A DNA stretch of 43,340 nt. It comes from a virus. Where the stretch lies: the IMG/VR virus record IMGVR_UViG_3300045988_176239. One strand, 5' to 3'. A program made the translations under genes and the position numbers. The notes under the pieces are model-generated. The model was not told the origin of the DNA, searched no databases, and saw only the letters and a list, made by a program, of their open reading frames with translations. Shown one piece after another: positions 1-43,340 of this stretch (positions are counted from its first letter, which is position 1; each line of letters starts with the position of its first letter).

Positions 1-55
1 CCCCCACCCACTACCATTGCAAGGGGGGAGTTACCGGAGGATACCCCACCACACA
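1..55. repeat. 55-bp exact terminal direct repeat (identical to 43286-43340); most likely the overlap of a circularly closed assembly
   Basis: cccccacccactaccattgcaaggggggagttaccggaggataccccaccacaca was read at both ends of the window and matched base for base. Confidence 0.9.
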
Positions 56-282
56 AACACCACAGACACACACACTGCACCACACACCACACACCCGGCA
101 AGACACAGCACACGACACGACAGCAGCACCGATGAGTACCACACCGGGGCGAGTGAGACACGGACCACACGCACCGGGCCGGGCGGGACAACAGCACACG
201 CCACCGCCATTCAACAGCAGCACACAGCAGAGGATGGACACCATCCACTCTCACACTGTTCACGTTCACACAACCAACAAAC

Positions 283-407
283 GATCATGATCAACGTGAT
301 CAACAATCATCGTTCAATGATTGATCAATGAACAATGAACAATGAACGAACATGATGATGATCAATGATCATCATGATGATGAACATGATGAACATGATG
401 ATGATCA
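283..407. repeat. Cluster of 7 GATC sites (6 as the TGATCA palindrome) in an AT-rich ATG/ATC low-complexity island
   Basis: GATC at 283, 289, 298, 323, 360, 367 and 403. It is followed (420-470) by several ATGCAT/GCATGC palindromes. Confidence 0.8.
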
Positions 408-791
408 TGTGATGATGACGTGATGCATGACATGCATACCAATACCATGCACCATGCATGGTGCCAACGCATGCCACAAGGCAACACGCAACGTACAACG
501 CACAAACGCACAAAAATGCACAAAAACAAAAGAAATGTTACAAAAACATGCAAAAACATTCAAAAGCGTGAAACAACAATGGTGTTCAAAAAAACCATGG
601 CAACAAAACAAGACGAACGGAAAGGGGGCCCCAACACACTAAGGGATCCCTTAAAGTGGGACCCGCGTCACAAAACAAGACAGGGAACACAACAAAACGA
701 GACGCACACCACACAATTTATGTGATGGGGGCCACTCCCCCTCCCCCATCCGGCCGCGAACACCCCGAAGGTCTGCCCATCCCTCCCTGCT

Positions 792-888
792 TGTGGAAAA
801 CCCTGTGGATAACTCCAGTAACCCAGATCACAATGTGACCGTCGTCATGTGGAAAACTCCCAAACCTGTGGAAAACCCTGTGGAAAAC
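792..888 (+). promoter_or_regulatory. Five direct copies of TGTGGA(A/T)AAC, two pairs at 12-bp spacing, just upstream of the first packaging gene
   Basis: Copies at 792-801, 804-813 (variant tgtggataac), 848-857, 867-876 and 879-888. All are in the same orientation and most are preceded by cc or c. Confidence 0.7.
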
Positions 889-892
889 TTCC

Positions 893-923
893 TTCAGACG
901 TGAGAGGTATCACAGCATATAAT
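893..923 (+). promoter_or_regulatory. Candidate promoter (TTCAGA-N19-TATAAT) that could give a leaderless or near-leaderless transcript for the gene starting at 931
   Basis: A perfect TATAAT at 918-923 lies 7 nt before ATG 931. The -35-like hexamer at 893-898 is weak. Confidence 0.3.
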
Positions 924-930
924 AGAGGGT

Positions 931-1212
931 ATGACAACCCACACAAACACCACAATCACCATATACGAACCCAACAGCCCCACACCCATCACAGACGCCA
1001 CAAACACAAACAACCCCACCCTCATCCGCCAAGCACTCGCACACAAAATCGCCACCGTCATAGACGACCCAAGAACAGGCGACACAGCACTCACAAAACT
1101 CACCGCACAACTCATACAAATCACAGACCAACTCGCCACCACACAAAACGAAAACACACAAACACACCCCACCGACATTCCAAACGAAACACAAACCTGG
1201 GACGGCATCTAA
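931..1212 (+). CDS. Small protein immediately upstream of terL; putative small terminase subunit
   Basis: 93 aa. Its stop at 1210-1212 is 2 nt before the terL ATG. The central part (LIRQALAHKIATVIDDPRTGDTALTKLTAQLIQITDQLA) looks helical, while the termini are T/N/P/H-rich because of the A/C-rich DNA. The call rests on position only. Confidence 0.4.
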   Translation: MTTHTNTTITIYEPNSPTPITDATNTNNPTLIRQALAHKIATVIDDPRTGDTALTKLTAQLIQITDQLATTQNENTQTHPTDIPNETQTWDGI

Positions 1213-1214: not shown

Positions 1215-2708
1215 ATGAGCGAAAAACACCTATCCGAAATCGCCGCCCACCTCACCCTCCCAGAAAACATCACACACACAGCCTGGCCGCCCGTCAAACG
1301 CCGCCTCCAAGAAATGCAATACCCCCTCGACATCTGGCAACAAGACTGGCTCAAAGCAATCCTCGCCAAACGCGACGACGGCCACTACGCCGCCAGCATC
1401 GACGGAATCCAAGCATCCATCCCACGACAAGTCGGCAAAACATACACAATCGGCGGCCTCACATTCGCACTCGCCACCCTCCACCCCAACTACTTCGTAC
1501 TCTGGACCGCACACCGCACGCGCACCGCAGACGAAACATTCAACGACATGAAAGGAATGGCACAAATCCCCGACATCGCCCCGTACGTGAACAAAATACG
1601 GCAAGCAAACGGGCAACAAGCCATCCTCTTCAACAACGGATCACGCATTCTCTTCGGAGCCCGCGAAGGAGGATTCGGACGAGGATTCCACGGCGTAGAC
1701 ATGATCCTCTTCGACGAAGCCCAAATCCTCGGCGCAGCCGCACTAGACGACATGATCCCCGCCACAAACACCGCGCCCGACCCGCTCATCATCAAAATCG
1801 GAACACCACCAAAACCAAAAGACCCATCCGAAGCATTCAGCGAATTCCGCAACCTCGCCCTACAAGGCGAAATAAAAGACGGCCTCTATTTAGAGTTGGC
1901 CGCCGACTACGACGCTAACAGCGACGACAGGAAACAATGGGAAAAAGCCAACCCATCATACCCTCGCCGCACACCCGAATCCGCCATTCTAAGAATGCGA
2001 CGGCAGCTCGGAGAAGAATCATTCCGACGTGAAGGCCTCGGAATATGGGATCGTGCCAACGACAGGCTCGCAATCGACCCAGTCGCCTGGAACACCGCCA
2101 CAATACGGCCAGAAAACACTCCACAAGGCATGCGATGGTGCGCCGCAATCAGATTCGCACCCGACGGATCAACCTGCGCCCTAGCCAGAGCAGGACACAA
2201 AGCCAACACGCCCACACACGTCGAACTCTGCACACACCAAGGCGTCCGCCGCATGAACGAAGGAACACAATGGATAATCGACTACATCGCGGACACAAAA
2301 GACAGATGGGCGCAAATCATCGTAGACGGAAAATACGGTGCCGGAGACACAATCGAAAGACTCCGTTCGATCGGAGTACGTCCCCAGGTCATTATTACTC
2401 CTACAATCACGCAAATCATAGACGCCTACAGCATGCTAGACGCGTCACTACGCGAAAACACAATCACGCACCTAGACGACATGCAACTGAGGACCGAGGC
2501 CGCATCCGCGACGCCACGCCCAATCGGAACATCCGGAGGCTGGGCCCTACAAGCGCCTCCTGGGGCGACAGTAGCCGGCCTGGAAGCTTGCACTCTCGCA
2601 ATGTGGGGCGCCCGCACAACAAAAAGAAGACCACGCTATAAGCCTTATGATAAAATCAAAAACGCCAATAGTAATAATGATCGTGGCGGCGGAGTGTTAT
2701 TCCTATGA
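1215..2708 (+). CDS. terL: Terminase large subunit
   Basis: 497 aa from ATG 1215. It has a Walker-A-like PRQVGKTY, a Walker-B-like VDMILFDEAQ and a nuclease-sized C-terminal half, and sits directly upstream of the portal gene. The ORF-track start at 849 is an artefact of the stop-poor A/C tract. Confidence 0.9.
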   Translation: MSEKHLSEIAAHLTLPENITHTAWPPVKRRLQEMQYPLDIWQQDWLKAILAKRDDGHYAASIDGIQASIPRQVGKTYTIGGLTFALATLHPNYFVLWTAHRTRTADETFNDMKGMAQIPDIAPYVNKIRQANGQQAILFNNGSRILFGAREGGFGRGFHGVDMILFDEAQILGAAALDDMIPATNTAPDPLIIKIGTPPKPKDPSEAFSEFRNLALQGEIKDGLYLELAADYDANSDDRKQWEKANPSYPRRTPESAILRMRRQLGEESFRREGLGIWDRANDRLAIDPVAWNTATIRPENTPQGMRWCAAIRFAPDGSTCALARAGHKANTPTHVELCTHQGVRRMNEGTQWIIDYIADTKDRWAQIIVDGKYGAGDTIERLRSIGVRPQVIITPTITQIIDAYSMLDASLRENTITHLDDMQLRTEAASATPRPIGTSGGWALQAPPGATVAGLEACTLAMWGARTTKRRPRYKPYDKIKNANSNNDRGGGVLFL

Positions 2709-24203: not shown

Positions 24204-24304
24204 GATAATCCTCTTCTCAAATATGTGTGTGTGATGGTGGTGGATGGTGGTGGTGGTCTGTCGTGGGTGGCGGGCCACCACTGTTGTGTGTGTGCGTGTG
24301 TGTG

Positions 24305-24454: not shown

Positions 24455-24585
24455 TGTCTTGTCTTCTCTATCTTGGCTGGGTGGCTTGTCCTCCCTGCTG
24501 ATGACTCAATCATGCTTTCTCGCGTGCCATGGGTCAACCCACATGGATGGTGCCCTATCTCACAAAACCAATGTTGTGCTAGGTA

Positions 24586-31675: not shown

Positions 31676-31719
31676 TAGTGTTTTTACTCTCTCTTCCTAA
31701 TGTTGGTTATGGTTGCGTG

Positions 31720-31926: not shown

Positions 31927-31934
31927 AATATTTT

Positions 31935-32186
31935 TCACCTCTCCTCTGTGGTGAGTTCGTAAATGTCGAGACTGTTATTGGTGGCCATGCTCCGCATGAT
32001 GTTAATGTTGTCCGCCGTGACATGGATGACATTAATGTCTGAGTGTCCGTCGTCCACTGGGGCGACGATCAGGAAATTCCTGCCGACCAGTTCGCTGTCG
32101 TCGGACGCGAGAATGTCCCTGATAGTGCCTGTCATGCGGCGTCGCACTAGACGAATGGTCGAGCCGCCATGTGTTTCTGTCTTCAT
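31935..32186 (-). CDS. Hypothetical protein
   Basis: 83 aa from ATG 32184-32186. Confidence 0.5.
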   Translation of the reverse strand: MKTETHGGSTIRLVRRRMTGTIRDILASDDSELVGRNFLIVAPVDDGHSDINVIHVTADNINIMRSMATNNSLDIYELTTEER

Positions 32187-32251
32187 GGCACTTACTGTAT
32201 TCGTGTGATGGTGGTGTACGCAACCCACGTGAGCGTGGCGTCTATCACATC

Positions 32252-33646
32252 TCATATGAGGCCGCTCTCACGCAAACGCTCATACCCCGCCGCCAACCTA
32301 GGCTCCACAGCCGTCACGTCAACAGTACCCTCACACTGCAAAAGAAAACGATTCACCCGCTTTGTTTGCCCCTTACGATTCAAACGAGCAGACGCCTGCA
32401 AATTCAAAATCACACTATTATCCTCACTCAACCAAACCTCAGTATTGCAAACATTCTGCAGACCGTCGATCCCTTCAGCGGCGGCCGCAATAACAGCACA
32501 AAGAACCCTCGGCCCATCGGACTCCAGAAATCGTTGCCACTCATTATGATAGTCACTGGACAACTCAACGCTTCGGTATCCGGCGTCAGCCAGTCGTTTC
32601 CGCAACGGCGCCATGAATTTACGCGAGTGACACCACAGAATAACCTTCTCGTCCAACGGCAGATCAGACAAAATATCAAGAGTGACATCTATCTTCGAGG
32701 ATCCTCGCTCCTCGAACTCAACACTATCGTCCACGATTCTCAGCGGCCCGAGAGTGATCTGTCTGAGACGCCCATCTAGAACGGCGGCAGACGAAGCAAC
32801 ACTGGCCCCACCATCCATAACCGCCAAACGATGATCCACAAACTCCCGATACATTCTCCACTGTTCACGCCGCATCCCACAAGCAACGCGTTGAACATTC
32901 ACGGGCGGAAGATCACCGAAAACCTCACTCCCCCGCATCGCAGACCAAACATCACCCACGGAATCGCGAAGAGCACCGGAAGTCTTTTCGCCACCATAAA
33001 TCCTGGCGTACGGGGAAGCCGCAAAAGGATTGAACTGGGAGACAAAAAACTCATCCGCAAACCGATAGAAACTACGGTCGACACTATCTGGGTTCAAGAA
33101 TTTGAGGACACCGTAAATGTTGACGGGTTTATTGCCGGCAGGCGTACCCGACAAGCCAAGACGATACCTTGACTTCAATGCTTTCACGGCCCGGAAAGAC
33201 CGAGTGCGGTGATTCGCAATACGGTGCACCTCGTCCACGATCACCATATCGAACAATTTTCTTGAGAAAGAAACGAACGGCCACTTCCCCGCATCTACCG
33301 CCTTTCCCAGGGAAACCAACATCTCGAAATTAATGACCCACCAACCATTCTCGCCGTTCAGCATGTCCTCAATGTTGGTGCGCCCGGCCTTGGTAGTGCG
33401 AGACAGCACTCTCGCCTCCCGACCGGTAATGATCTTGATACTGGCCTGCCATGATGGAATGACGCGCTTCGGACACACAACAATGACTCGCCTGGTCGCG
33501 TCGAGTTTCTGTGTGGCCCAGATTGCGCCGTATGTTTTGCCGCAGCCCGGTTCCCAAGCAAGCAAAGCGCCACCGCCGCCTCGAATCGCGGCGACGGTGC
33601 GATTGATTTCTCTTTCCTGCGCCCCTGTGGGCCGAATGTTAATCAT
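32252..33646 (-). CDS. SNF2/SF2-family DNA helicase
   Basis: 464 aa with motif I WEPGCGKTYGA, motif II VDEVHRIAN, and C-terminal helicase motifs including QASARLNRKGQTK. Confidence 0.8.
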   Translation of the reverse strand: MINIRPTGAQEREINRTVAAIRGGGGALLAWEPGCGKTYGAIWATQKLDATRRVIVVCPKRVIPSWQASIKIITGREARVLSRTTKAGRTNIEDMLNGENGWWVINFEMLVSLGKAVDAGKWPFVSFSRKLFDMVIVDEVHRIANHRTRSFRAVKALKSRYRLGLSGTPAGNKPVNIYGVLKFLNPDSVDRSFYRFADEFFVSQFNPFAASPYARIYGGEKTSGALRDSVGDVWSAMRGSEVFGDLPPVNVQRVACGMRREQWRMYREFVDHRLAVMDGGASVASSAAVLDGRLRQITLGPLRIVDDSVEFEERGSSKIDVTLDILSDLPLDEKVILWCHSRKFMAPLRKRLADAGYRSVELSSDYHNEWQRFLESDGPRVLCAVIAAAAEGIDGLQNVCNTEVWLSEDNSVILNLQASARLNRKGQTKRVNRFLLQCEGTVDVTAVEPRLAAGYERLRESGLI

Positions 33647-33731
33647 TGAAATTAGTCCAAACGATCACTAGTAGGCAAGCGGCGAGCATGAACACGAAGC
33701 ATGTCACCTGCTCTCTCCTTTCCGATATGAG

Positions 33732-33767
33732 GAACCCCGCCCCGCTGACAATGACGGGGCGGGGTTC
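33732..33767 (-). terminator. 13-bp GC-rich hairpin downstream of gene 33779-33991
   Basis: gaaccccgccccg (33732-33744) pairs with cggggcggggttc (33755-33767). There is no U-tract. Confidence 0.5.
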
Positions 33768-33778
33768 GTCGCATGTGG

Positions 33779-33991
33779 TCAGTGGGCGATGGTGTGACGC
33801 TCCACCGCATCCCAGTAAGCGTCCTCGTCCACGTCCACCACATAGTAAGGGGTGCCAGTGGCGGAGAAATACTGTCCGATCACGTCATCGGCGATCGCGG
33901 CAACATCATAGTCGTCCATCTGGTCGAGCGTGGGGATAATGTCGAACATGATGACGTCATTCCGAGTGCTGCGACGAGCGACAGTGTCCAT
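33779..33991 (-). CDS. Small acidic hypothetical protein
   Basis: 70 aa, Asp-rich (DQMDDYDVAAIADDVIGQYF...VVDVDEDAYWD). It is preceded by a (GAGAGAA)n purine leader. Confidence 0.5.
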   Translation of the reverse strand: MDTVARRSTRNDVIMFDIIPTLDQMDDYDVAAIADDVIGQYFSATGTPYYVVDVDEDAYWDAVERHTIAH

Positions 33992-34051
33992 AATTTCTCT
34001 TCTCTCTTCTCTCTTCTCTCTGTACTATCACCGTTCCTCGGTGACGACCCT

Positions 34052-34082
34052 AGTGTAGGCAGGCTGTGCATCCCGCAGTCAA
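34052..34082 (-). promoter_or_regulatory. Candidate internal leftward promoter TTGACT-N19-TACACT
   Basis: Minus-strand TTGACT at 34082-34077 and TACACT at 34057-34052. The geometry matches the candidate promoter at 40427-40457. Confidence 0.3.
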
Positions 34083-34103
34083 CCCACAAGGGCGTGACCG
34101 TGC

Positions 34104-35006
34104 TCACATCTCTAGTTGGAGGAGAGACAACGCCTCACCCACAGCCGCACTCACATCACCGCCACACTCCAATACCCTCATACAATCAAAAGCCGTATGC
34201 GCCCGCCCGTCCGCGAGCGGATCGTCCGCATGATGCGAGAAAACCAGACCACTGTCCAACATCGTCACACCCGGAGCCGTGCCACCGCCACGCGTATACC
34301 GCCATCGCCGCCCCACCGACTCGTAAGGCCAACCAAACAAACCAACGAGATCATTAAACCCGTATTTTGAATTGAACTCGCCGATAACCCCACCATAAGC
34401 GCCATCAGGCACAGAAGACAAAGAAACACTACCATCGCCCTTCTCCTCGTACCCGATGTTCTCCAACCATTTATCAACGCTCAAACAAGCACCATCAATA
34501 AGCCAATGACGCACCCTCAAACCAAGATGATGTGATGGCAGGAAAAAAGCTCGGGACGCCTCAGCACACGACCCGTCCCACTGAAACACCGGCCCTAACA
34601 CACTAAAGCACGTCCGGCCGATCGCCTCACTTTCTCCCACAGTCATACTGCGAGTACACGGCAGAACAACACGGAAACGCGGGGACACGAAGGAGGATGA
34701 CGCCGTCTCCCACACAATGCCAGCAAGATTCGCCGCCCTCATACGATCCCCAACAAAATCCTCCCGCGACCCATGATCCGCATCCAAAACAATCGCCGAC
34801 CTGGACACGAAATTCCTCTTCTGCCGCCTACCCCCCGCAAGAATGCCAGCGAAAAACGCAGGGGCATCATATTTCTCGCATTTCGAGGGCGCCTCACACA
34901 GAGCAGCAAAATCGTTAAGGTTTACGTTAGTGGCACGCCACCCTGTGATGGAACGAACATTGCCCGCTACCATCACAGGGAAACGCACCCCGAAAACATC
35001 ACTCAC
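34104..35006 (-). CDS. Putative primase (AEP / VirE-N-like with a PriCT-like C-terminus)
   Basis: 300 aa with a DxD-like IVLDADHG and SPRFRVVLP. It overlaps the upstream helicase-like gene by 8 nt. The assignment is from memory only. Confidence 0.4.
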   Translation of the reverse strand: MSDVFGVRFPVMVAGNVRSITGWRATNVNLNDFAALCEAPSKCEKYDAPAFFAGILAGGRRQKRNFVSRSAIVLDADHGSREDFVGDRMRAANLAGIVWETASSSFVSPRFRVVLPCTRSMTVGESEAIGRTCFSVLGPVFQWDGSCAEASRAFFLPSHHLGLRVRHWLIDGACLSVDKWLENIGYEEKGDGSVSLSSVPDGAYGGVIGEFNSKYGFNDLVGLFGWPYESVGRRWRYTRGGGTAPGVTMLDSGLVFSHHADDPLADGRAHTAFDCMRVLECGGDVSAAVGEALSLLQLEM

Positions 35007-36570
35007 CGTACGACGGCTCCGCTATCTGATCCCGCAAAATCGCCTCCACGAGACCATTATCCACAATCTCACCCTCCGTACGGAATTTCACGCCCCGACG
35101 AAGAATGTACTGCCGATACTCCTCCACGCTTCGCGGTGACAGGTTTTTCGCTTCCAGCACCTGATAAAGACGCGTCTCGGTCGGAGGATTACTACTAAAA
35201 TCGTCCACCATACGTGTCAGGTCCGGAACAAAAACATAGTCGATCATTTTCAGCGCGTCGGGCAGCCAGAAATCAGCGGCCAGGCCGAAAGCTTTCCTCA
35301 CCGCGGACGATGACACGCTCATCTGCTGTTCGAAAAGAGACAGAATAGCGGCCACACGCATAACATGATTCCCCATGCGATCAATGACCGCCTGCACTGC
35401 ACGCTGGAAAGGCGACTCGCGGGCCGCCTCCCGGCCCCAGCCCCGCATTGTCTCCACCCAAACATTCCTCGCAGACTCGGTCACGGTCATAGTCATTGGC
35501 GTATTGACAGGCCAAAACTCAGTGGCACAAGTGACAGTACCACGGAATTCGTGCTGCATCATCCCCAGCATTGCTGAAATGCGTTCGGAAGCATGCTCAA
35601 CAAAACCATCACCACCATGCGCACTCAGGTCATTGTTGGTGACCCATCCGAAAGACGAAGGATCGGACTGGCGGTCCTCTTCATCCAAGGCGAAAAGAAT
35701 ACGCGGGCCCCACCCCGTCTCAAACAGAGACTGCGGCATATTATCGACTACGTCGCCGAGAATCCCAGTGCCGCAGAAAGCAAGAGAATGAGGAACCCTC
35801 TCACTATCCGCACGCCTCACACCATCATCGCCGACACGCACAGACTCGACAGTCCTACCCGAGTAGACGTCAGTCAAGAACCCGATGAGCCCGCTACGAT
35901 AACCCTCACCCTGCGACGCGGAGTACATGTTCTGCAGTTCGTCTACAAACATGATAGACGCCCCGCCCGGCCGCTGCGCCATCCGAAGATTCAAACCCTC
36001 AGCCGTCACATTAGACCCGAACAAAACATTCGCCATAAGAGACCGCTCGCACGGACTATTACCGATAGTATTCAACAAATCCTTACGATCAGCCTCAAAC
36101 TCGGCAATACGGTTATTAATATCGTCCCGCTCTGTCCGATACTCGTCAATATCAATACGCCCGCCCCTCCTTTCCAAAGATTCCAAACGACGAAACAGCA
36201 TGCGGAGCGCCAAGTCAACCTCCCGTACGGCCGCCAAACACTGAGACGAATCCCACCTGAACGCGCCCACGCAATCATCAAAAAAACTACGCACCAAAGA
36301 CTGCGCCGTCGTCTTCCTCGACAAAGTAGACGCCCCCAGACAATGAGAGTACAAAGTCAACGGCACCATACTCTGCGCGTTCGCAGACAAATGAGTCCTC
36401 GCAGACAACGGGGCAGACACCATCGTCAGAAAAGTCGTCCACAGGAAACGAGGCGGCGTCTCCGGCGACCTGGACTGCAAATAGTCAACAACCCTGTCAG
36501 CGAACCAATCATAATGCACGCCCCCATCCGAGGACGCGAACTCGTAATCCGCAATCCTCTCAACACTCAA
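34999..36570 (-). CDS. DUF3987-like replicative helicase/primase-associated protein
   Basis: 523 aa with a TTG start in a TTGA overlap after GGAGGAG. GASIMFVDELQNMY is Walker-B-like and GASTLSRKTT is a degenerate P-loop. Confidence 0.45.
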   Translation of the reverse strand: MSVERIADYEFASSDGGVHYDWFADRVVDYLQSRSPETPPRFLWTTFLTMVSAPLSARTHLSANAQSMVPLTLYSHCLGASTLSRKTTAQSLVRSFFDDCVGAFRWDSSQCLAAVREVDLALRMLFRRLESLERRGGRIDIDEYRTERDDINNRIAEFEADRKDLLNTIGNSPCERSLMANVLFGSNVTAEGLNLRMAQRPGGASIMFVDELQNMYSASQGEGYRSGLIGFLTDVYSGRTVESVRVGDDGVRRADSERVPHSLAFCGTGILGDVVDNMPQSLFETGWGPRILFALDEEDRQSDPSSFGWVTNNDLSAHGGDGFVEHASERISAMLGMMQHEFRGTVTCATEFWPVNTPMTMTVTESARNVWVETMRGWGREAARESPFQRAVQAVIDRMGNHVMRVAAILSLFEQQMSVSSSAVRKAFGLAADFWLPDALKMIDYVFVPDLTRMVDDFSSNPPTETRLYQVLEAKNLSPRSVEEYRQYILRRGVKFRTEGEIVDNGLVEAILRDQIAEPSYGE

Positions 36571-36881
36571 TTGCTCTCCTCCCCCACGTCAACAAGAAAA
36601 CTATTGAAAGCATCAAGAATCTCATCGCCATCGAAAGTATAGCCAACGTCAAACATAGGCCCCCAATAACGGTCCGTGTGCTCGAAAATCGTCGCCTTAT
36701 AGCCGCGAACAGTATCCGCCTCAAAAATAAACCGGTGCCCAAGCGATGCCACAACAATGTGAATGCTGTTATTCCAGGCGCTCACTTCCAGGCCGAGCGA
36801 ATCATTCCCGCCCTTACTGGCGTAATTCTTACACGCCTCCGTGACATGCTTCAGAAACTCCCAGTCGAATAGCTTGATCAT
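36567..36881 (-). CDS. Hypothetical protein
   Basis: 104 aa from ATG 36881 (ATGA overlap). Confidence 0.5.
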   Translation of the reverse strand: MIKLFDWEFLKHVTEACKNYASKGGNDSLGLEVSAWNNSIHIVVASLGHRFIFEADTVRGYKATIFEHTDRYWGPMFDVGYTFDGDEILDAFNSFLVDVGEESN

Positions 36882-37198
36882 TTGCCCTCCCACAGTCTTA
36901 TCTTGATTTCGTTGAAAAGCTCCTGAAGCACCCATGTCCCTTTCCCTCTCTCTACCGTTGTGATTATTTCGTTCGTGCCACAGTTTCGAATGCTCGCCGA
37001 ATACTCCTCCCCTACAATGCTGAGAGTGCATCCGTATTGTTTCCCGGTGACGTCCAAGTAGAGGACGGGCAGACCACTGCCCACAATGGCATCCTCCCCA
37101 GTGTCCAATAGGATGGATTCGCAACGCGGATCATTGAGCATCTCCGCCACGAATTCGATCACGACCGGCCGCAGCTCGCCGTCAATCACGACTCTCAC
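36878..37198 (-). CDS. Hypothetical protein
   Basis: 106 aa with a GTG start following GAGGGAAG. Confidence 0.5.
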   Translation of the reverse strand: MRVVIDGELRPVVIEFVAEMLNDPRCESILLDTGEDAIVGSGLPVLYLDVTGKQYGCTLSIVGEEYSASIRNCGTNEIITTVERGKGTWVLQELFNEIKIRLWEGK

Positions 37199-37520
37199 CT
37201 TCCCTCATGCCAGCCAGCTCTGCAAAACGATTCACAGCATTGACGATAGTGCCCCTATCAGCACCACTCTCGTCCAAGAGGACATGATTCGACAGCTGAA
37301 TAACACGCACCCGCCATATCTCATCTTTCGTGATAACAATCCTGAAGACGGTCCTATCGTCAGGGTTCCTGGCCGTCGCTTTGAAGAGAACATCGAAAAG
37401 ACGGGCGCCTTCATTGTTGCCACGCAAAGCAACAATTGAACACTGAGGCCACTGGGCGAAATCGCCAACACAACTAGCAAGGAAAGCGAACACCGCCTTA
37501 TCAATAGCAGAGTCACTCAT
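37182..37520 (-). CDS. Hypothetical protein
   Basis: 112 aa from ATG 37520, with an 8-nt overlap with the upstream gene. Confidence 0.5.
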   Translation of the reverse strand: MSDSAIDKAVFAFLASCVGDFAQWPQCSIVALRGNNEGARLFDVLFKATARNPDDRTVFRIVITKDEIWRVRVIQLSNHVLLDESGADRGTIVNAVNRFAELAGMREGESRD

Positions 37521-37794
37521 TGTCGGCCGCCTTACTACGATCCGCCGCGACAATCAAAGCACGACGCACAAACTCACCGACACTCTCCGGAGGAATCGCG
37601 GCGCTCTTCCGCTTAACGTGCCTTGCCCTCACTGTGTCGCCGGCGACCACGATACGGCAAGTGCTGCCAATAGTGACGATGCCGCCATCGTAAATTCTGC
37701 GGGCAGGCACATGCACGTTGAACTCGTGACGGCGCCCGTCATCATTCCACTCACGAACCGCCTGAGCGACAACCGTCTCAAAAACTGTACCCAT
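37513..37794 (-). CDS. Hypothetical protein
   Basis: 93 aa with an ATG start. Confidence 0.5.
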   Translation of the reverse strand: MGTVFETVVAQAVREWNDDGRRHEFNVHVPARRIYDGGIVTIGSTCRIVVAGDTVRARHVKRKSAAIPPESVGEFVRRALIVAADRSKAADNE

Positions 37795-37860
37795 AGTAAT
37801 GCTTCTCTCTTCCCAAATATTGTGACGGATACTACTATTTACCGTTGGATGGGCGTGGGG

Positions 37861-38352
37861 TTAAATGTCGAAGCCGACCACCTCCTCCACGGGCACGCCC
37901 ACCAAATCACACAAATCAGCCAACCCGTCCCTGGCGTCAGACCGAGCACACTTCCACGTCGACGAACCCTTATCGCTGCCCCGCATTTCTTCCAGGCAAA
38001 GAATGAAAACGTCCGCCAAGCGACTACTTTCCTCTTTCCTCTCGTGACGCTTGACGCGTTTATGAATCCACCTGGCCGCAACGGCCGTATTCTCACTGAC
38101 AGTAAGAGTTTTCTGCCACCAAGCATCTCCCGTCATCTCTTTCGCACTGAAATACCACGCTGTCGGCCTACCGTCATCAAACACGTACGTTTCAATAACA
38201 CCGGCCTTAGTGTCCCAGATCATGACGGTAAAGCCGGCATCATCGTAATGACATGAAGTGACGGGCGGCATATTTTCTCGAATAAACCCCATTTCGACAT
38301 CCGGATCGGTCACCCCCTCAATGATGGGGCCATCATATTCAAACCATCGCAT
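37861..38352 (-). CDS. Hypothetical protein, possibly with a C-terminal HTH (GLADLCDLVGVPVEEV)
   Basis: 163 aa with a strong RBS (AAGGAGGAGGAAATT). Confidence 0.55.
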   Translation of the reverse strand: MRWFEYDGPIIEGVTDPDVEMGFIRENMPPVTSCHYDDAGFTVMIWDTKAGVIETYVFDDGRPTAWYFSAKEMTGDAWWQKTLTVSENTAVAARWIHKRVKRHERKEESSRLADVFILCLEEMRGSDKGSSTWKCARSDARDGLADLCDLVGVPVEEVVGFDI

Positions 38353-38388
38353 AATTTCCTCCTCCTTTCCCCTGGAACTACGGTAGTG

Positions 38389-39303
38389 TCAGACGATCAC
38401 ACTGTCAAGAATCTCCCGAACTCGACCACAAAACTCACCCCACGCCTCATCCGCGGCGTACGACCGGTCAGGAGAATCAAGCCTGCCAAGAGCAAACTCG
38501 ACACCACTCTTACCCGCGCCCACAGAAATCTGCCCAATAATCTCACCACTGAAATAGGCGACAGTCAAAGAATCCCCCACCATTGCAAGAGTAATACCAC
38601 AAGCGCCCGCCACCGAAACGAGACCATCCATGGCCGAGGCGCCTACAACAAGACGGTCAAACATTTCCTGCGTCTTACCCACAAGATTCTCAGTACAGGT
38701 CACACCAATATTGGCCTCCCACCTAAGAGTCTCAATATTGTCCACGGTCAGCGCGGCCTCACCGGAAATGAACGTCATCTCACCCATCGGCTTCGTGTAA
38801 ATGTGAAACCGCGTTGAATGTGTGAGCGGCCTCGCCGGCCTCCACTGAACAGCAGCCTCAACGGGGGTGCGGGAATCCATAACAACAGGATCGTGAGTGA
38901 TGTCGTCCACAAAGTGGTCCCAGATGGGGCGCTTCGACGCATCCTCCCCAGTGAACGGGTCAATGTCCAGCTCGGCGCCGCTTCGCCTCATAGCGACCAT
39001 CATGGTGCCAATCGGCGCCCCGCCAGACGACACTGTCAGGGTCGAAAACTCATCCTCGTCAACATAGAGACCGTGCTCGTCAGCCAGGATGAGAATGCGG
39101 TCATAAATCTTCGCCATGCCCACCATGGAAGCCAGCCCCTCACTAGCGGAACGACGGTCATCCGGAAATTCGGGAAGATAGGCGGGCGCAAGGCGATCGG
39201 ACAGAAGAATGTCCTCCCTGTCCATTATCTGCGTTGTGCCGTCCAACCAAATACCCCGCGACCAATTCGTGACGTCAATGGTGAAAAGCGCGTCGTAAAA
39301 CAT
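38389..39303 (-). CDS. Hypothetical protein
   Basis: 304 aa from ATG 39303 with an AGAGGAAGAGGA RBS. Confidence 0.55.
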   Translation of the reverse strand: MFYDALFTIDVTNWSRGIWLDGTTQIMDREDILLSDRLAPAYLPEFPDDRRSASEGLASMVGMAKIYDRILILADEHGLYVDEDEFSTLTVSSGGAPIGTMMVAMRRSGAELDIDPFTGEDASKRPIWDHFVDDITHDPVVMDSRTPVEAAVQWRPARPLTHSTRFHIYTKPMGEMTFISGEAALTVDNIETLRWEANIGVTCTENLVGKTQEMFDRLVVGASAMDGLVSVAGACGITLAMVGDSLTVAYFSGEIIGQISVGAGKSGVEFALGRLDSPDRSYAADEAWGEFCGRVREILDSVIV

Positions 39304-39352
39304 GACATCCTCTTCCTCTAGTGCTTGTGTCGTCAGAATTGCGGGAGGGGGG

Positions 39353-39535
39353 TTACCGTACTCCCAGCGTCCCCCACAGGGCCCAAATAGCCGCCACGAA
39401 ACCGAGCGTCCCCACAACGGCGAGACATGATGCGGTCAGGTAGATGACGGCGGCCAGGATGATTTCGCTGCCCCTTTTCAAAGGGCGGCGGGTAGCGGCG
39501 TTCGTGTTGCGGGGCGCTGAGTGCCTCATGGTCAT
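39353..39535 (-). CDS. Small membrane protein
   Basis: 60 aa with a basic N-terminus followed by the hydrophobic IILAAVIYLTASCLAVVGTLGFVAAIWALW. The RBS is GGAGAAAGAG. Confidence 0.5.
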   Translation of the reverse strand: MTMRHSAPRNTNAATRRPLKRGSEIILAAVIYLTASCLAVVGTLGFVAAIWALWGTLGVR

Positions 39536-40457: not shown

Positions 40458-40539
40458 CCCCCAGCGTACGTGACTCGTATCTCAGTGGACTCCGGGAACG
40501 CCCGCAGTGCTTACGCCACTGCCCCGCCCGTGTCATCCC

Positions 40540-40866
40540 ATGAGCATGGATATATCAACCCTTCTGTACGTCTCACCCGCCTCCGTGCCTGAAACCATGA
40601 CGGCCCTCACGCTCCGCTACGTCGAAGATCGCGAGGAAGTCGCCGACCGATACTTGCGCGCAACGCTGCGATCCTTCATGTTCGACCTCTACCCCCACGA
40701 AGCGTTCGAGCTGATCCGCACCTTCGCCACCGAGACCACGGACGACATCCAAGACCTCGAGGGTGAGGAGGTGGCGAGCCGGATCAACGTCGCGCTGCGG
40801 CGGCTGATCGACCGCGCCGAGGCCGATGAAGCCTTCATGGCCGAGCTGACCGAGTTGGCCTACTGA
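40540..40866 (+). CDS. Small acidic hypothetical protein
   Basis: 108 aa from ATG 40540 (alternatives are GTG 40507 and ATG 40546). It is helical and Asp/Glu-rich. Confidence 0.5.
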   Translation: MSMDISTLLYVSPASVPETMTALTLRYVEDREEVADRYLRATLRSFMFDLYPHEAFELIRTFATETTDDIQDLEGEEVASRINVALRRLIDRAEADEAFMAELTELAY

Positions 40867-40989
40867 GCCGTCCGTCCCACCCGCACAATGCGACAGAGGC
40901 CCCCCCCGGGGGGGTCTTGCGTTAGCCAAGCCCCAAGGAGCATTCTTATATCAACAGAACAACCCAACCGACCGGGAAGGAAAGAGAGA

Positions 40990-41331
40990 ATGAGCACCGC
41001 CATCTACCGCACTGAGGACCCCGCCCTCGAGACCATCGAGTTCGGTACCGTCTACCATGTTCACGACTCGCGCACCGGCGCCTCGTGGGTCCTCTACGAG
41101 AGCGACGATTGCGGTGTCAGCTCCATTGAGCCGCTGGACGTCCCTGATGGATGGGACGACGCCTACGAGTATGCGACGGTTGACACGCGCATTTGGTCTC
41201 GCATCGCCGATCTCGCCAGCGACGCCTTCCTGGCCAGCGCCGACCTCGAGGTCACTATCGTTCCCGTCCTCGAAGAGGGGGCGGACCCCAGGTCGCGCGC
41301 TCTGCTGTACCGCTTCGTTTGGCTCTTCTGA
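40990..41331 (+). CDS. Small acidic hypothetical protein
   Basis: 113 aa from ATG 40990 with a GGAAGGAAAGAGAGA RBS. It is very Asp/Glu-rich. Confidence 0.55.
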   Translation: MSTAIYRTEDPALETIEFGTVYHVHDSRTGASWVLYESDDCGVSSIEPLDVPDGWDDAYEYATVDTRIWSRIADLASDAFLASADLEVTIVPVLEEGADPRSRALLYRFVWLF

Positions 41332-41746: not shown

Positions 41747-41808
41747 CTGCGGCGCAGCCGCTGAGGAGCCCTAGCGACGCAAGCGAGCGTCGGCGCCGCA
41801 GGGTGTTT
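41747..41808 (+). terminator. Compound GC-rich stem-loop followed by a T-run
   Basis: ctgcggcgc (41747-41755) pairs with gcgccgcag (41793-41801), with an inner cgacgc/gcgtcg pairing, followed by ggtgtttt. Confidence 0.5.
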
Positions 41809-41864
41809 TCGAAGAGCTCGCCACTGTGTTGGGCCCAACCTATACTCTTAAAAGAGTACTAGAA

Positions 41865-41898
41865 TTAGACACTGTCTACCTGTGTTAGACACTGTCTA
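41865..41898. promoter_or_regulatory. Two copies of the 14-bp near-palindrome TTAGACACTGTCTA spaced 20 bp (operator-like), downstream of a TATACT -10-like hexamer (41841-41846)
   Basis: Copies at 41865-41878 and 41885-41898. With the flanking aa/tt they form a larger near-palindrome. Confidence 0.6.
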
Positions 41899-42093
41899 AT
41901 TAGGAAACATGTGTTATGACGTAATTGAGAGTGCACAGTGTTCAAAGAAGAATACTGTGATCGTTAACAACGAACAGTGTGTGGCGTGAACAACAATACC
42001 ATCATGGTGGTATGCAATAAACATTGCGCATGCAAAAACACGCACACACCCACCAAATAAACAAACCCAAAACACAAAGGCGCGTGTTGTGCT

Positions 42094-42126
42094 ACGTGCG
42101 TGCTCGCAAAGCTGCGCGCGCACTAC
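42094..42126. repeat. 33-bp direct repeat acgtgcgtgctcgcaaagctgcgcgcgcactac (copy 1), itself an imperfect GC-rich hairpin
   Basis: Identical to 42759-42791. gtgcgtgc can pair with gcgcgcac around the caaag loop region. Confidence 0.9.
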
Positions 42127-42303
42127 ACAACACACGCCAACCCACAAACAAAGAAAAACGAGAAGAGAAAAGACAAAGACAGGAACAAGAGAGTAGCGTT
42201 AGACGGTGGAGGCGCTCGTCTCGCTGACGCTGCGACGCGCCACCACCTAACACAAACAAAAAAAACAAAGACAAAAAGAAAAGAACAAAAAGAAGAAAAC
42301 ACG

Positions 42304-42648
42304 ATGAGCAGAACAAGCACACGCGAACACAAACAATTCAGAAAACAAGTACTCGCCCGAGCACAACAAATGGGCATCACACACTGCCCAGCATGCGGAA
42401 CCAAACTCCAATACAACAACAACGGACAACGCAAACCCAACTCAGCTGAAGCAGACCACATAATCCCAGCCTCACTAGGCGGAACCAACCACCCAGACAA
42501 CGGCAGAGTCCTCTGCGCCAAATGCAACAGCAGACGAGGCAACGGACGAGGAGGCAAAGGAAGAGCACGCCACTACCAGAAAAACGAGAACGAAAGAGAC
42601 AGACTCCCTATCGCTGTCATGCCAACACAACACAGTGACACATGGTAA
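42304..42648 (+). CDS. HNH endonuclease (packaging-associated type)
   Basis: 114 aa from ATG 42304 with CPACG...ADHIIPASLGGTNHPDNGRVLCAKCNSRRGN (HNH with two CxxC pairs). It lies one gene before terS/terL across the circular junction. Confidence 0.85.
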   Translation: MSRTSTREHKQFRKQVLARAQQMGITHCPACGTKLQYNNNGQRKPNSAEADHIIPASLGGTNHPDNGRVLCAKCNSRRGNGRGGKGRARHYQKNENERDRLPIAVMPTQHSDTW

Positions 42649-42758
42649 CCCCCCCGCCATTCCACACCAACAAGAAAAGCGGACAGTAAAGAAAAACAGT
42701 GGAGGAGAAGAGAAGAGAGAACAAGACAACAAGAAAGACGCAATGGTGTTCGGGGATA

Positions 42759-42791
42759 ACGTGCGTGCTCGCAAAGCTGCGCGCGCACTAC
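42759..42791. repeat. 33-bp direct repeat (copy 2)
   Basis: Identical to 42094-42126. Both copies are followed by about 20 nt of A/C-rich sequence and then a purine (aaagaaaag-type) tract. Confidence 0.9.
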
Positions 42792-43285
42792 CCCGAACAC
42801 CAACACAAAAGGAAAAAAAGAAAGAAGAAAAGAAAGAGAAGAATGGACTGCAACAAACACACCACCACCCACCGCCCTTCTGCCCGAACACAAACCACCA
42901 CCGACATTCCACAATGACACAACCCTGACATTAAAACACAACCCTAAACCAACAATGCTGTGACAGCAAACACAGTGAAGGACGGGGGCGACGCAAGGAG
43001 AACAGAGCGGGACACGGTTCCACCACCACACCTCCCCACCGCACTTCTCCACCCACAACAAACAACACAAAGGGGAAGCAAGACAACGCAAGGGGAACAG
43101 GACAACACAAAGGCGCCCAGCCCAAAGACGGGGGACGCCACAGCACACACCACCCCCGCCATTCAACACGGCCACCACACAAACAGAAGAGGGACGCCAA
43201 CATACAGACGGGGAGGACAACAACACTGCCGCCCTTCATTCACCATGCCACCCCACCCCGCAACACCACCCCACCATCCACAATG

Positions 43286-43340
43286 CCCCCACCCACTACC
43301 ATTGCAAGGGGGGAGTTACCGGAGGATACCCCACCACACA
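43286..43340. repeat. 55-bp terminal direct repeat (second copy)
   Basis: Identical to 1-55. Confidence 0.9.

What the first reader, a model, noticed from the sequence alone, without database searches (positions are those of the whole stretch)
41990..43340. About 2.5 kb of T-poor, A/C-rich, nearly gene-free DNA wrapping the genome junction around the packaging genes
Seen: from about 41,990 to the end, and again from 1 to about 1,210, the + strand consists almost only of A and C, with purine tracts and a few G islands. T is nearly absent over hundreds of bases (for example 42,120-42,300, 42,650-43,285 and 56-240). Only the HNH gene (42304-42648) and a small terS candidate look like real genes. 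Every other six-frame ORF is low complexity (H/T/N/P/K on +, C/V/G/W on -), which is what a stop-poor composition produces by chance. By my count about 6% of a 43-kb phage genome has no coding capacity, which is exceptional.

Established: the HNH-terS-terL neighbourhood is where cos/pac sites lie. Rho loads on long C-rich, G-poor, unstructured, untranslated RNA.

Inference: the sense transcript of this tract cannot fold and would act as a giant rut-like leader. Late (packaging/structural) expression might therefore be gated by Rho termination and antitermination, with the rare GC hairpins (42094-42126, 42205-42247, 42759-42791) as punctuation. Alternatively the tract is an extended terminase recognition region.
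Basis: partly seen in the sequence, partly recalled or inferred. Interest (0 to 1): 0.8.

Follow-up and report, generated by a model that had tools for sequence, protein, structure and literature searches.

The report
Gene-poor, T-poor phage genome end
The last ~2 kb of this actinobacterial phage's DNA really is an almost gene-free, strand-lopsided (T-poor) stretch that holds the genome's cutting/packaging site, a regulated promoter and conserved hairpins; a similar oddity is already known in Cutibacterium acnes phages, and what the A/C-rich part does is still untested.

Summary
The window is a circular assembly of a 43,285-bp cos phage. From 41,990 across the junction to about 930 the + strand has 4-10% T (genome 20%) and about 70% A+C. 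"Almost only A and C" overstates it, since G is about 20%. In 19-22 close relatives only HNH (42304-42648) and terS (931-1212) evolve like genes; every other ORF is broken.

The tract is the right end of the virion DNA. At least ten related contigs start exactly at 774, one with a sequencing adapter fused there. This places cos at about 763-774, followed by five TGTGGAWAAC repeats (cosB-like) and a leaderless terS promoter. Upstream lie a conserved promoter with operator palindromes, three hairpin-plus-polypurine modules (one with covariation), and a hypervariable 1.0-1.3 kb A/C-rich spacer carrying 4-8 oriented copies of CCACCGCCATTCMACA.

The spacer is clade-specific: sister clades have about 100-250 bp there. 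G/T avoidance also rules synonymous sites of HNH, terS and terL, where it appears selected.

[quoted passage not shown] The Rho-gating idea is compatible but untested. The "terminase region" idea is right only for about 420-930. Verdict: new variant of a known kind, moderate interest.

The parts
41747..41809 (+). Terminator-like hairpin (CTGCGGCGC...GCGCCGCAG) followed by GGTGTTTT; it closes the upstream + strand genes (40507-41331).
   Evidence: Sequence. Fold -34.8 kcal/mol, z -1.7. Stem changes are compensated in relatives.
41818..41846 (+). Promoter-like site TCGCCA-17-TATACT pointing into the tract.
   Evidence: Consensus scan. The -10 and its surroundings are identical in nearly all 19 relatives.
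41863..41901 (.). Operator-like palindromes TTAGACAnTGTCTAA: two copies here, three in some relatives.
42079..42138 (+). Hairpin 1, with a 33-nt core identical to that of hairpin 3.
   Evidence: Fold -37.8 kcal/mol, z -4.4. 97.7% of cells paired; 5 pairs changed on both sides; covariation score 0.084 against 0.045 in shuffles, 0/500.
42139..42195 (+). Polypurine tract 1.
   Evidence: Variable in length and sequence in relatives.
42196..42250 (+). Hairpin 2, 99% conserved; its 3' half plus purine tract is a paralogue of the 3' half of hairpin 3.
42251..42303 (+). Polypurine tract 2, running up to the HNH start codon.
42304..42648 (+). HNH endonuclease gene, with A/C-ending codons.
   Evidence: Pfam HNH 4e-10 and phrog_338 3e-17. 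Intact in 19/19 relatives. 4-fold sites: A .53, C .41, G 0, T .06.
42650..42668 (+). Copy 1 of the oriented motif CCACCGCCATTCMACA, directly after the HNH stop.
42744..42802 (+). Hairpin 3: same core as hairpin 1, with a different but complementary outer stem.
   Evidence: Fold -39.2 kcal/mol, z -6.7. 97% conserved. Covariance-model hit 1e-18; only two copies in the genome.
42803..42843 (+). Polypurine tract 3.
42844..43285 (+). Hypervariable A/C-rich spacer, first part. It carries motif copies at 42898-42914 and 43153-43169, plus G islands.
   Evidence: Identity to relatives 0.3-0.8 with large indels. T 7.4%.
1..240 (+). Hypervariable A/C-rich spacer, second part, with a motif copy at 201-217.
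241..420 (.). Palindrome-rich ATGAWCA/TGATCA micro-repeat block. It is not T-poor.
   Evidence: 10 of the genome's 15 ATGAWCA sites lie in 287-408. Inverted repeats. The repeat pattern turns over between relatives.
421..475 (.). Highly conserved ATGCAT / CCATGCATGG palindromes.
   Evidence: 95% conserved..
505..600 (.). Conserved A-tracts recurring about every 10-11 bp (possible bent DNA).
   Evidence: Read from the sequence. Conserved 0.88-0.92. Phasing was not tested statistically.
624..666 (.). Three short G+C palindromes: GGGGGCCCC, AAGGGATCCCTT and GTGGGACCCRC.
724..750 (.). GATGGGGG...CCCCCATC inverted repeat just left of cos.
763..773 (.). Probable cohesive end CCCCGAAGGTC; the virion left end starts at T774.
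   Evidence: At least 10 contigs start at 774, and an Illumina adapter is fused to 774 in L044. Fold-back chimeras join at 763 in L010 and L057. Overhang length and polarity are inferred.
792..888 (+). Five TGTGGAWAAC direct repeats: cosB-like small-terminase sites.
   Evidence: 5 matches against 0.13 expected. The first copy begins 18 nt from the end, as in HK97, where the TerS site begins 15 bp downstream of the cut. Copy number varies in relatives.
918..933 (+). TATAAT, 7 nt, then the ATG of terS: a leaderless-type promoter.
   Evidence: conserved in relatives.
931..1212 (+). Small terminase gene. It contains a motif copy at 1169-1185.
   Evidence: phrog_1459 7e-5. 93 aa and intact in all relatives. 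4-fold sites: A .44, C .56, G 0, T 0.
1215..2708 (+). Large terminase gene. The A/C bias continues into it and decays along it.
43286..43340 (.). Exact copy of bases 1-55: a circular-assembly overlap, not biology.

Best explanation
What it is (high confidence). This is the non-coding right end of the virion DNA of a cos-packaging, HNH-associated actinobacterial siphovirus, plus the first 160 bp of its left end. In this clade it has been enlarged by a 1.0-1.3 kb spacer between HNH and cos.

Cos-proximal part, about 420-930 (DNA-level function; positions shown, binding inferred). This is the packaging site. It comprises conserved palindromes and A-tracts, the cut site at about 763-774, five TerS-type repeats and a leaderless terS promoter.

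Remainder (inferred). I read it as a transcribed but untranslated bridge.
- A repressor-controlled promoter near 41,841 fires rightwards.
- Its RNA runs through two hairpin-plus-purine modules, HNH, a third hairpin module, and then about 1.4 kb of A/C-rich RNA.
- Once cos ends are joined, it continues across cos into terS and terL.
- Avoiding G and U keeps this RNA free of intrinsic terminators and nearly unstructured, apart from the conserved hairpins.
- The hairpins would act as processing or antitermination signals.
- Such an RNA would be Rho-sensitive, so read-through could tie packaging-gene dosage to genome circularisation.

Which factor reads the hairpins and the repeated CCACCGCCATTCMACA motif is unknown.
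For: Physical end and cos:
- Identical contig starts at 774, an adapter fusion, and fold-back joins at 763.
- TGTGGAWAAC occurs five times against 0.13 expected, beginning 18 nt from the end. In HK97 the TerS site begins 15 bp from the cut (PMC10370121).

Non-coding status.

Promoter and operators are conserved. No + strand terminator-like site occurs from 41,812 to about 6.5 kb.

Hairpins:
- z -4.4 and -6.7.
- Covariation in hairpin 1, 0/500 shuffles.
- Hairpins 1 and 3 share an identical core with different complementary outer stems.
- An invariant U.G pair forms only in the + sense.

All motif copies and purine tracts lie on the + strand.

G/T avoidance looks selected on the sense strand:
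- At terS and terL 4-fold sites, G/T minor alleles are rarer than A<->C ones (5% against 33% with MAF >= 0.2, p = 0.003).
- Portal shows no such effect, nor does the minus-strand primase.

The + RNA folds about 40% less well than the genome average. Rut-like windows are 39% against 4%.

The spacer is kept in all 22 distinct relatives at 972-1,275 nt, with A+C .65-.71.
Against: - There are no expression data, so the orientation and extent of transcription are inferred from consensus matches.
- terS has its own promoter-like TATAAT, so read-through may be dispensable.
- Sister clades (terL 61% identical and below) have the same HNH-cos-terS order with only about 410-520 nt from the HNH stop to the terL start, and no such tract.
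- Within the non-coding spacer the polymorphism spectrum gives no clear sign of selection on composition.
- The single-step intermediates in hairpin 1 are C.A, which would be wobble pairs on the minus strand.
- Minus-strand genes at 32-39 kb share the + strand C excess. Part of the skew is therefore a DNA-strand effect rather than an RNA effect.
- No Rfam family matches.
Confidence: 0.45

Rival explanations
1. The tract is an origin of replication, as was proposed for the analogous non-coding region of C. acnes phages. On this reading the repeat blocks, palindromes, bent DNA and purine/pyrimidine tracts are where the phage primase-helicase or the host replisome starts. The strand skew would then be a replication footprint.
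For: - The precedent region is >1 kb, non-coding, the most variable part of the genome, of odd composition, and shows a GC-skew switch; an origin was suggested for it (PMC3448167).
- A dense ATGAWCA/TGATCA repeat block lies at 241-420, followed by conserved palindromes and A-tracts.
- The phage encodes a primase-helicase, a helicase, an exonuclease and a Sak4-type annealing protein, but no polymerase was found.
- Part of the skew is strand-absolute and independent of gene direction.
Against: - The extremes of the cumulative skew are not in the tract. The minimum is near 31.8 kb and the detrended maximum is near 5-6 kb, so the tract sits inside one skew arm.
- Synonymous-site G/T avoidance looks selected in terS/terL but not in primase. 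A pure replication footprint does not predict this.
- Sister clades lack the spacer.
- The candidate repeats lie next to cos and could equally be packaging accessory sites.
Confidence: 0.2
2. Most of the A/C-rich kilobase has no function of its own. It is a clade-specific expansion of short repeats by slippage and unequal recombination next to cos, with composition inherited from the seed sequence and a local mutation bias. Only the embedded islands (hairpins, cos signals) are functional.
For: - The spacer is hypervariable, with large indels and changing repeat numbers.
- It is absent from sister clades and from isolated relatives (Spartoi, MrSmee), whose HNH lies 50-160 bp from the end.
- No clear selection signal on composition appears inside the spacer.
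- Per-site rates of rare variants lean slightly towards A/C: G>A .26 against A>G .21, and T>C .25 against C>T .19.
Against: - No one of 22 distinct relatives has lost it. Length stays 972-1,275 nt, and T stays 9-12% over that whole stretch, which also includes the T-richer 241-420 block.
- The 16-nt motif is conserved at four homologous sites inside otherwise scrambled sequence and recurs in new insertions.
- The measured mutation bias predicts only about 1.2-1.3:1 for A:G and C:T, against the observed 1.9:1 and 2.8:1.
- The same composition appears selected at synonymous sites next door.
Confidence: 0.2
3. The tract is a protective leading end. The right end is packaged last and should enter the cell first. 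A strand-asymmetric, palindrome-poor stretch would offer few Type II restriction sites. Oriented motif copies on the 3'-ending strand could act like Chi sites against end-entering helicase-nucleases.
For: - The tract is the right-terminal roughly 2 kb.
- Palindromic 4-mers and 6-mers are about 3 times rarer in 42,650-240 than in a control region: 24 against 72 per kb, and 5.7 against 19 per kb.
- The motif copies all share one orientation.
- That the last-packaged end exits first is established for lambda-type phages (own knowledge).
Against: - The bias continues into terS and terL at the opposite, last-entering end.
- The 241-930 part nearest the end is palindrome-rich.
- Palindrome loss is an automatic consequence of any strand skew.
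- The host and its restriction or RecBCD/AdnAB systems are unknown.
Confidence: 0.08
4. The whole roughly 2.5 kb is one extended terminase recognition region.
For: - Cos, cosB-like repeats, palindromes and A-tracts lie within it.
- The reverse complement of the motif begins TGTGGAA, like the cosB-like repeat (read from the sequences).
Against: - Known cos sites span about 200-500 bp.
- The part beyond about 420 is hypervariable.
- Sister clades package with 100-250 bp between HNH and terS.
- The shared 7-mer lies in the low-information part of the motif.
Confidence: 0.05
5. The tract hides unusual low-complexity protein genes.
For: - Long ORFs exist on both strands, for example 42573-43226 on the minus strand at 217 aa.
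- Real genes here (terS) also have T/N/H-rich ends.
Against: - There is no codon periodicity of substitutions.
- The ORFs are broken in 8-19 of 19 relatives, with indels that are not multiples of three.
- No Pfam or PHROG hits.
- The minus strand is stop-poor simply because it lacks A.
Confidence: 0.02

Closest known systems
[quoted passage not shown] 2012, PMC3448167)
   Same: - The genome plan matches: structural genes run rightward and replication genes (primase, helicase, RecB-like exonuclease) run leftward.
- There is no integrase, and HNH sits at the extreme right end next to cos.
- A region of more than 1 kb is non-coding, is the most variable part of the genome, has unusual base composition and has conserved low-complexity runs.
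- PA6 also carries two copies of one G+C hairpin about 640 bp apart.
- PA6's HNH end is T-poor (9-12%) with A+C .64-.72.
- C. acnes phages have an 11-nt 3' extension, the same length as the interval inferred here.
   Different: - There is no sequence similarity, and the hairpin model finds nothing in PA6.
- In PA6 the region lies upstream of gp46-47-HNH. It includes a very A+T-rich half and a polypyrimidine run, and HNH abuts cos.
- Here an extra roughly 1.4 kb lies between HNH and cos. The tract is A/C-rich rather than A+T-rich, and the bias crosses cos into terS and terL.
- The function of the PA6 region (origin or regulatory) was only suggested, never tested.
cos sites of lambda and HK97 (cosQ-cosN-cosB; HK97 small-terminase site, PMC10370121)
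   Same: - The genome has defined ends.
- Repeated TerS-type sites lie between the cut and terS. The first repeat, with an A-tract, begins 18 nt from the end, against 15 bp in HK97.
- HNH lies immediately upstream.
- Bend-like A-tracts and palindromes lie on the other side of the cut.
   Different: - Binding and cleavage have not been tested.
- There are five decamer repeats rather than a single 15-bp site (HK97) or the R sites plus IHF site of lambda.
- About 1 kb of extra hypervariable DNA has no counterpart.
Late transcription across cos under processive antitermination (lambda Q/pR'; nut boxB; HK022 put RNA)
   Same: - A promoter upstream of the last right-end gene would have to cross joined cos ends to reach terS and terL.
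- Two conserved hairpins share an identical core but differ in their flanks, in the manner of nutL/nutR or putL/putR.
- They are placed early in successive segments of the unit.
   Different: - There is no homology, no boxA-like element and no Rfam hit.
- No Q- or N-like gene has been identified.
- Function is untested.
- A separate terS promoter is present.
Rho utilisation (rut) regions and Rho-dependent polarity in untranslated RNA
   Same: The stretch is long, untranslated, C>G and poorly structured: median C/G 1.69, and 39% of windows are rut-like.
   Different: - G is still about 21%.
- The purine-rich leader before HNH is not rut-like.
- The host and its Rho are unknown.
- No termination data exist.
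Intercistronic RNase III processing hairpins of T7-type phages (own knowledge)
   Same: Hairpins of about 60 nt and about 25 bp, with small internal mismatches, flank a gene inside a long transcript. The copies resemble one another.
   Different: No cleavage data exist. The polypurine tracts on the 3' side have no T7 counterpart.

Membership tests
Cohesive-end (cos) packaging site | Unique physical genome ends at one position | tested here: met
   At least 10 independent contigs start at window 774, and an adapter is fused to 774 in L044.
Cohesive-end (cos) packaging site | Short single-stranded complementary extension | tested here: inconclusive
   Fold-back chimeras join at 763, suggesting an 11-nt interval 763-773. 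Polarity and length were not measured.
Cohesive-end (cos) packaging site | Small-terminase binding sites between the cut and terS | tested here: inconclusive
   Five TGTGGAWAAC repeats at 792-888, enriched and positioned as in HK97. Binding is not testable here.
Cohesive-end (cos) packaging site | HNH-terS-terL-portal gene neighbourhood | tested here: met
Rho-dependent terminator / rut region | C-rich, G-poor, weakly structured RNA of at least 70-80 nt | tested here: met
   39% of 78-nt windows in 42,649-240 meet C/G >= 1.5, G <= 20% and C >= 30%, against 4% in 6-31 kb. Minimum free energy is -13 to -17 against -26 kcal/mol. The leader before HNH does not qualify.
Rho-dependent terminator / rut region | Not translated | tested here: met
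Rho-dependent terminator / rut region | Transcribed in this sense, with 3' ends that depend on Rho | not testable with these tools
   Needs RNA-seq or term-seq with and without bicyclomycin in the (unknown) host.
Processive antitermination RNA (nut/put type) | Conserved promoter-distal hairpin(s) with structure under selection | tested here: met
Processive antitermination RNA (nut/put type) | Similarity to a described family (boxA/boxB, put, EAR, etc.) | tested here: not met
   No Rfam match, even at E <= 1.
Processive antitermination RNA (nut/put type) | Makes RNA polymerase terminator-resistant | not testable with these tools
   Needs reporter or in vitro transcription assays.
Pahexavirus-type right-end non-coding region | >1 kb non-coding region near the right end, most variable part of the genome, unusual composition with conserved low-complexity runs | tested here: met
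Pahexavirus-type right-end non-coding region | Sequence or element homology with the C. acnes phage region | tested here: not met
   No blastn hit in the phage collection. The hairpin model does not hit PA6.
Pahexavirus-type right-end non-coding region | Strand-skew switch inside the region | tested here: not met
   A sharp onset occurs at about 41,990, but the cumulative skew extremes lie at about 31.8 kb and about 5-6 kb.
Replication origin | Repeated initiator sites next to an easily melted segment | tested here: inconclusive
   An ATGAWCA/TGATCA block at 241-420 with flanking palindromes and A-tracts. The initiator is unknown.
Replication origin | Supports initiation of DNA synthesis | not testable with these tools
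   Needs marker-frequency or plasmid-replication assays.
Protein-coding gene | Codon-periodic substitution and reading frame kept among relatives | tested here: not met
   The positive controls, HNH and terS, pass.

The most novel reading that the evidence does not exclude
The roughly 4 kb from the right-end promoter through cos to the end of terL is a zone in which G and U are kept out of the sense RNA by selection, in both non-coding DNA and codons. This would yield a nearly pairing-free 'amino-base' transcript, punctuated by three protected hairpins and an array of one 16-nt motif.

That would be a previously undescribed RNA-level device of a phage. Three possible uses are:
- a Rho-sensitive gate, or a Rho trap, that times packaging-gene expression;
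- a way to escape U-dependent host endoribonucleases or toxins;
- a scaffold for a motif-binding factor.
Probability: 0.15. Interest if true: 0.75.

Novelty: new variant of a known kind. Interest (0 to 1): 0.5.

Why it matters
Kilobase-sized gene-free regions are rare in tailed phages, which are otherwise tightly packed. The one well-documented parallel, in C. acnes phages, has gone unexplained since 2012.

This clade offers a sharper version of that case:
- the physical end is mapped;
- a sister clade lacks the spacer;
- dozens of natural variants are available;
- the hairpins show covariation;
- there is population-genetic evidence that the same odd composition is selected at synonymous sites of the packaging genes.

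Together these make three questions directly testable: what the region does, whether the composition acts through RNA or through DNA, and whether Rho is involved. If the region turns out to be only a repeat expansion, it is still useful. It shows how strongly a stop-poor, strand-skewed composition can mislead ORF callers on the opposite strand.

Tried and rejected
- **Known RNA families:** none found with Rfam, either at gathering thresholds over the whole window or at E <= 1 on the tract. No tRNAs.
- **DNA similarity to isolated phages:** none for the tract.
- **DnaA boxes:** TGTGGATAA at 804 looks like one. I dropped that reading because the five repeats sit 18-115 nt from the mapped genome end, directly before terS, which fits TerS sites.
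- **Small ORF after polypurine tract 3** (ATG at 42844, 24 aa): neither the start codon nor the frame is conserved.
- **Apparent terS frameshift** (2/19 intact): this was an alignment artefact at the stop codon. terS is 93 aa in all relatives.
- **Hairpin family elsewhere:** there are only two copies in this genome and none in 55 loci of other clades.
- **Motif scan of IMG/VR:** outside this clade it returned only single chance hits.
- **Host or prophage search in 185k genomes:** only 40%-identical terL genes in Leucobacter turned up, so the host remains unknown.
- **Simple mutational explanations for the skew:** single-strand exposure by transcription, by end resection or by rightward forks each predicts the wrong strand for at least one part of the region. 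Measured rare-variant rates are too symmetric to produce the composition.
- **P4-type iteron resemblance (TGTTCA):** I could not verify it in the held literature, so I did not use it.
Full report
**1. The observation**

The window ends with an exact copy of its first 55 bases, so it is a circular assembly of a 43,285-bp genome, and the two halves of the finding are one stretch. In 200-nt windows the + strand has 4-9.5% T across 42,101-43,285 and 1-300. The genome mean is 20.5%, and 15 of the 19 windows below 10% T in the whole genome lie here.

A+C is 71-73% and G about 20%, so "almost only A and C" is too strong. The block 281-480 is not T-poor. The + strand RNA still folds, but weakly: -13 to -17 kcal/mol per 100 nt against -26 genome-wide, with three strongly structured islands.

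**2. Coding capacity**

TerL (1215-2708) is about 50% identical to the terminases of Arthrobacter, Rothia and Propionibacterium freudenreichii phages. IMG/VR holds 60-odd close relatives with terL 93-100% identical.

I aligned 19 relatives that span 41,500 to 1,300.
- Substitutions pile up at third codon positions only in HNH (share 0.59-0.64) and terS (0.53-0.71).
- Every other window gives 0.34-0.45.
- HNH and terS are intact in all relatives. All other ORFs of the tract are interrupted or frameshifted in most of them, and indels are not multiples of three.
- HNH is confirmed by Pfam and PHROGs. terS is supported weakly, by one PHROG hit.

The long minus-strand ORFs are a by-product of a strand that lacks A and therefore lacks stop codons.

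**3. Where the tract sits**

At least ten related contigs begin at exactly window 774 (TGCCCATCCC...). In one of them an Illumina adapter is fused directly to T774. Two chimeric fold-back contigs join at 763. This places the physical left end at 774 and suggests an 11-nt cohesive end, CCCCGAAGGTC (763-773). That length matches the 11-nt extension of C. acnes phages, but polarity and length are inferred here.

The tract is therefore the right-terminal roughly 2 kb of the virion DNA plus the 160 bp between the left end and terS.

Five TGTGGAWAAC repeats (792-888; 0.13 expected by chance) start 18 nt from the end. In HK97 the small-terminase site starts 15 bp from the cut and contains an A-tract. 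A conserved TATAAT lies exactly 7 nt before the terS ATG, the geometry of a leaderless actinobacterial promoter.

To the left of the cut, positions 420-775 are 82-99% conserved. They are packed with palindromes (ATGCAT-type, GGGGGCCCC, AAGGGATCCCTT, GTGGGACCCRC) and with A-tracts every 10-11 bp. A micro-repeat block at 241-420 holds 10 of the genome's 15 ATGAWCA sites. I read 420-930 as the packaging site proper.

**4. The rest of the anatomy**

- **Entry to the tract.** Upstream + strand genes end at a terminator-like hairpin with a T-run (41747-41809). A promoter-like site (41818-41846) follows, with its -10 conserved in nearly all relatives. Next come two or three copies of the palindrome TTAGACAnTGTCTAA, depending on the relative.
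- **Three hairpin-plus-polypurine modules.** These are 42079-42195, 42196-42303 and 42744-42843, and they flank HNH. Hairpins 1 and 3 share an identical 33-nt core but have different, internally complementary outer stems.
- **Covariation in hairpin 1.** Across 23 variants, 97.7% of cells pair, five pairs change on both sides, and the covariation score exceeds all 500 shuffles and all slid controls.
- **Copy number of the hairpin family.** A covariance model finds only these two copies in the genome and none in other clades. No Rfam family matches.
- **The spacer.** The remaining roughly 1 kb (42,844-240) is hypervariable, with 30-80% identity and indels of up to hundreds of bases. It nevertheless keeps its composition and carries 4-8 same-strand copies of CCACCGCCATTCMACA. 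Four of these sit at homologous sites in every relative. A further copy lies inside the 3' end of terS, where the nucleotides are kept while neighbouring codons vary.

**5. The composition is wider than the tract, and partly selected**

At 4-fold degenerate sites:
- HNH has A .53, C .41, G 0, T .06.
- terS has A .44, C .56, G 0, T 0.
- terL has A .38, C .46, G .10, T .06, and the protease gene is similar.
- Portal, capsid and tail genes in the same operon use host-like codons, with A only .03-.12.

A+C falls gradually along terL. In 53 sequences, G/T minor alleles at 4-fold sites of terS and terL are rarer than A<->C minor alleles: 5% against 33% reach a minor-allele frequency of 0.2 or more (p = 0.003). 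Portal shows no such contrast.

Per-site rates of rare variants are nearly symmetric, so present-day mutation cannot by itself hold 88% A/C. Minus-strand replication genes at 32-39 kb share the + strand C excess but show no selection signal.

Inside the non-coding spacer the evidence is ambiguous. Singletons run 55 towards G/T against 19 towards A/C, but the allele-frequency contrast is not in the expected direction.

My reading is as follows. G/T avoidance on the sense strand of the packaging genes is selected, which points to an RNA-level cause. Part of the regional skew is a separate DNA-strand effect.

**6. Comparison with relatives and the literature**

- Isolated relatives (Rothia phage Spartoi, Arthrobacter phage MrSmee) are compact. 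Their HNH lies 50-160 bp from the right end, and Spartoi, the one profiled for composition, shows no skew.
- Among 46 metagenomic loci with terL 41-61% identical, none has a 2-kb tract with 7% T. In the sister clades the HNH stop lies only about 410-520 nt from the terL start, against 1,852 nt here.
- All 22 distinct members of this clade keep the spacer at 972-1,275 nt. It is therefore a clade-specific but stably retained expansion.
- The nearest described parallel is in C. acnes phages. Their non-coding region near the right end exceeds 1 kb and is the most variable part of the genome. It has unusual composition and conserved low-complexity runs. It was proposed, but never tested, to be an origin of replication (PMC3448167).
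- PA6 also has a twice-repeated G+C hairpin and a T-poor (9-12%) HNH end. There is no sequence homology to this tract, and the placement relative to HNH differs.

**7. Mechanism**

*Shown:*
- the non-coding status;
- the cos position;
- TerS-type repeats at the expected distance from the cut;
- a conserved promoter-like site with operators pointing into the tract;
- hairpins whose structure is under selection;
- the strand-specific arrangement of all elements;
- the absence of terminator-like sites on this strand from 41,812 to about 6.5 kb;
- rut-like composition in 39% of windows between HNH and cos, against 4% in a control region.

*Inferred:*
- A + strand transcript starts near 41,850 and, once cos ends are joined, reaches terS and terL.
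- The G/U-poor composition keeps that RNA terminator-free and unstructured.
- The hairpins act as processing or antitermination signals.
- Rho could act on the untranslated kilobase.

It is weakened by the separate terS promoter and by sister clades that do without the tract. The rival readings cannot be excluded in silico: a replication origin, a largely functionless repeat expansion, or a palindrome-poor protective leading end. Each is listed with the test that would settle it.

**8. Verdict**

It is a new variant of a known but unexplained kind of phage non-coding end region. Interest is moderate (0.5). It would rise markedly if the selected G/U avoidance proves to be an RNA-level regulatory device.

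Noticed in passing
window 21260-21778 (-) and 22229-23227 (-): A dCTP deaminase-like gene (phrog_1663, 4e-45) lies close to a 332-aa protein with a nucleotide-kinase-like C-terminus (phrog_236, 3e-18). The pair may indicate dU-containing or modified-thymidine DNA.
   Followed up: no
window 31585-32251: A 668-bp gap between the exonuclease and helicase genes coincides with the sharpest switch in + strand A+C fraction (0.41 to 0.60). It also coincides with the minimum of the cumulative amino-base skew. It could be an origin, a terminus or a module boundary.
   Followed up: partly
window 32252-39417: Minus-strand replication genes (helicase, primase-helicase and neighbours) have C>G on the + strand and only 5-9% T at 4-fold sites, so their sense strand is G/T-rich. 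The primase gene shows no selection signature.
   Followed up: partly
window 931-6647: Codon usage is mosaic within a single operon. terS, terL and the protease use A/C-ending codons, while portal, capsid and tail genes use host-like codons with almost no A-ending ones. This suggests either module exchange or gene-specific constraint.
   Followed up: partly
L044:1-30; L010:1-110; L057:1-30: Assembly artefacts that reveal the physical DNA end. In L044 an Illumina adapter (…GCTCTTCCGATCT) is fused to window position 774. L010 and L057 are inverted fold-back chimeras joined at 763.
   Followed up: yes
window 41863-41901: The operator-like palindrome TTAGACAnTGTCTAA is present in two copies here and three in L014, L016, L028 and L030. 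It lies directly downstream of a conserved -10. The regulator that binds it was not identified.
   Followed up: partly
window 1150-1190 (3' end of terS): The nucleotide motif CCACCGACATTCCAAAC is kept across relatives while the neighbouring terS codons vary, and the substitution phase departs from the terS frame. This points to a DNA- or RNA-level constraint overlapping the coding sequence.
   Followed up: partly
L210 (Propionibacterium phage PA6), whole genome: PA6 has a strongly G/T-rich + strand (A+C 0.30-0.39) across 27 kb regardless of gene direction. This flips to A/C-rich (0.64-0.72, T 9-12%) over the last roughly 600 bp, which include HNH.
   Followed up: partly
window 24001-24500: A local patch shows the opposite skew (AT skew -0.39, A+C 0.38-0.40) around the minus-strand ORF 23808-24383.
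   Followed up: no
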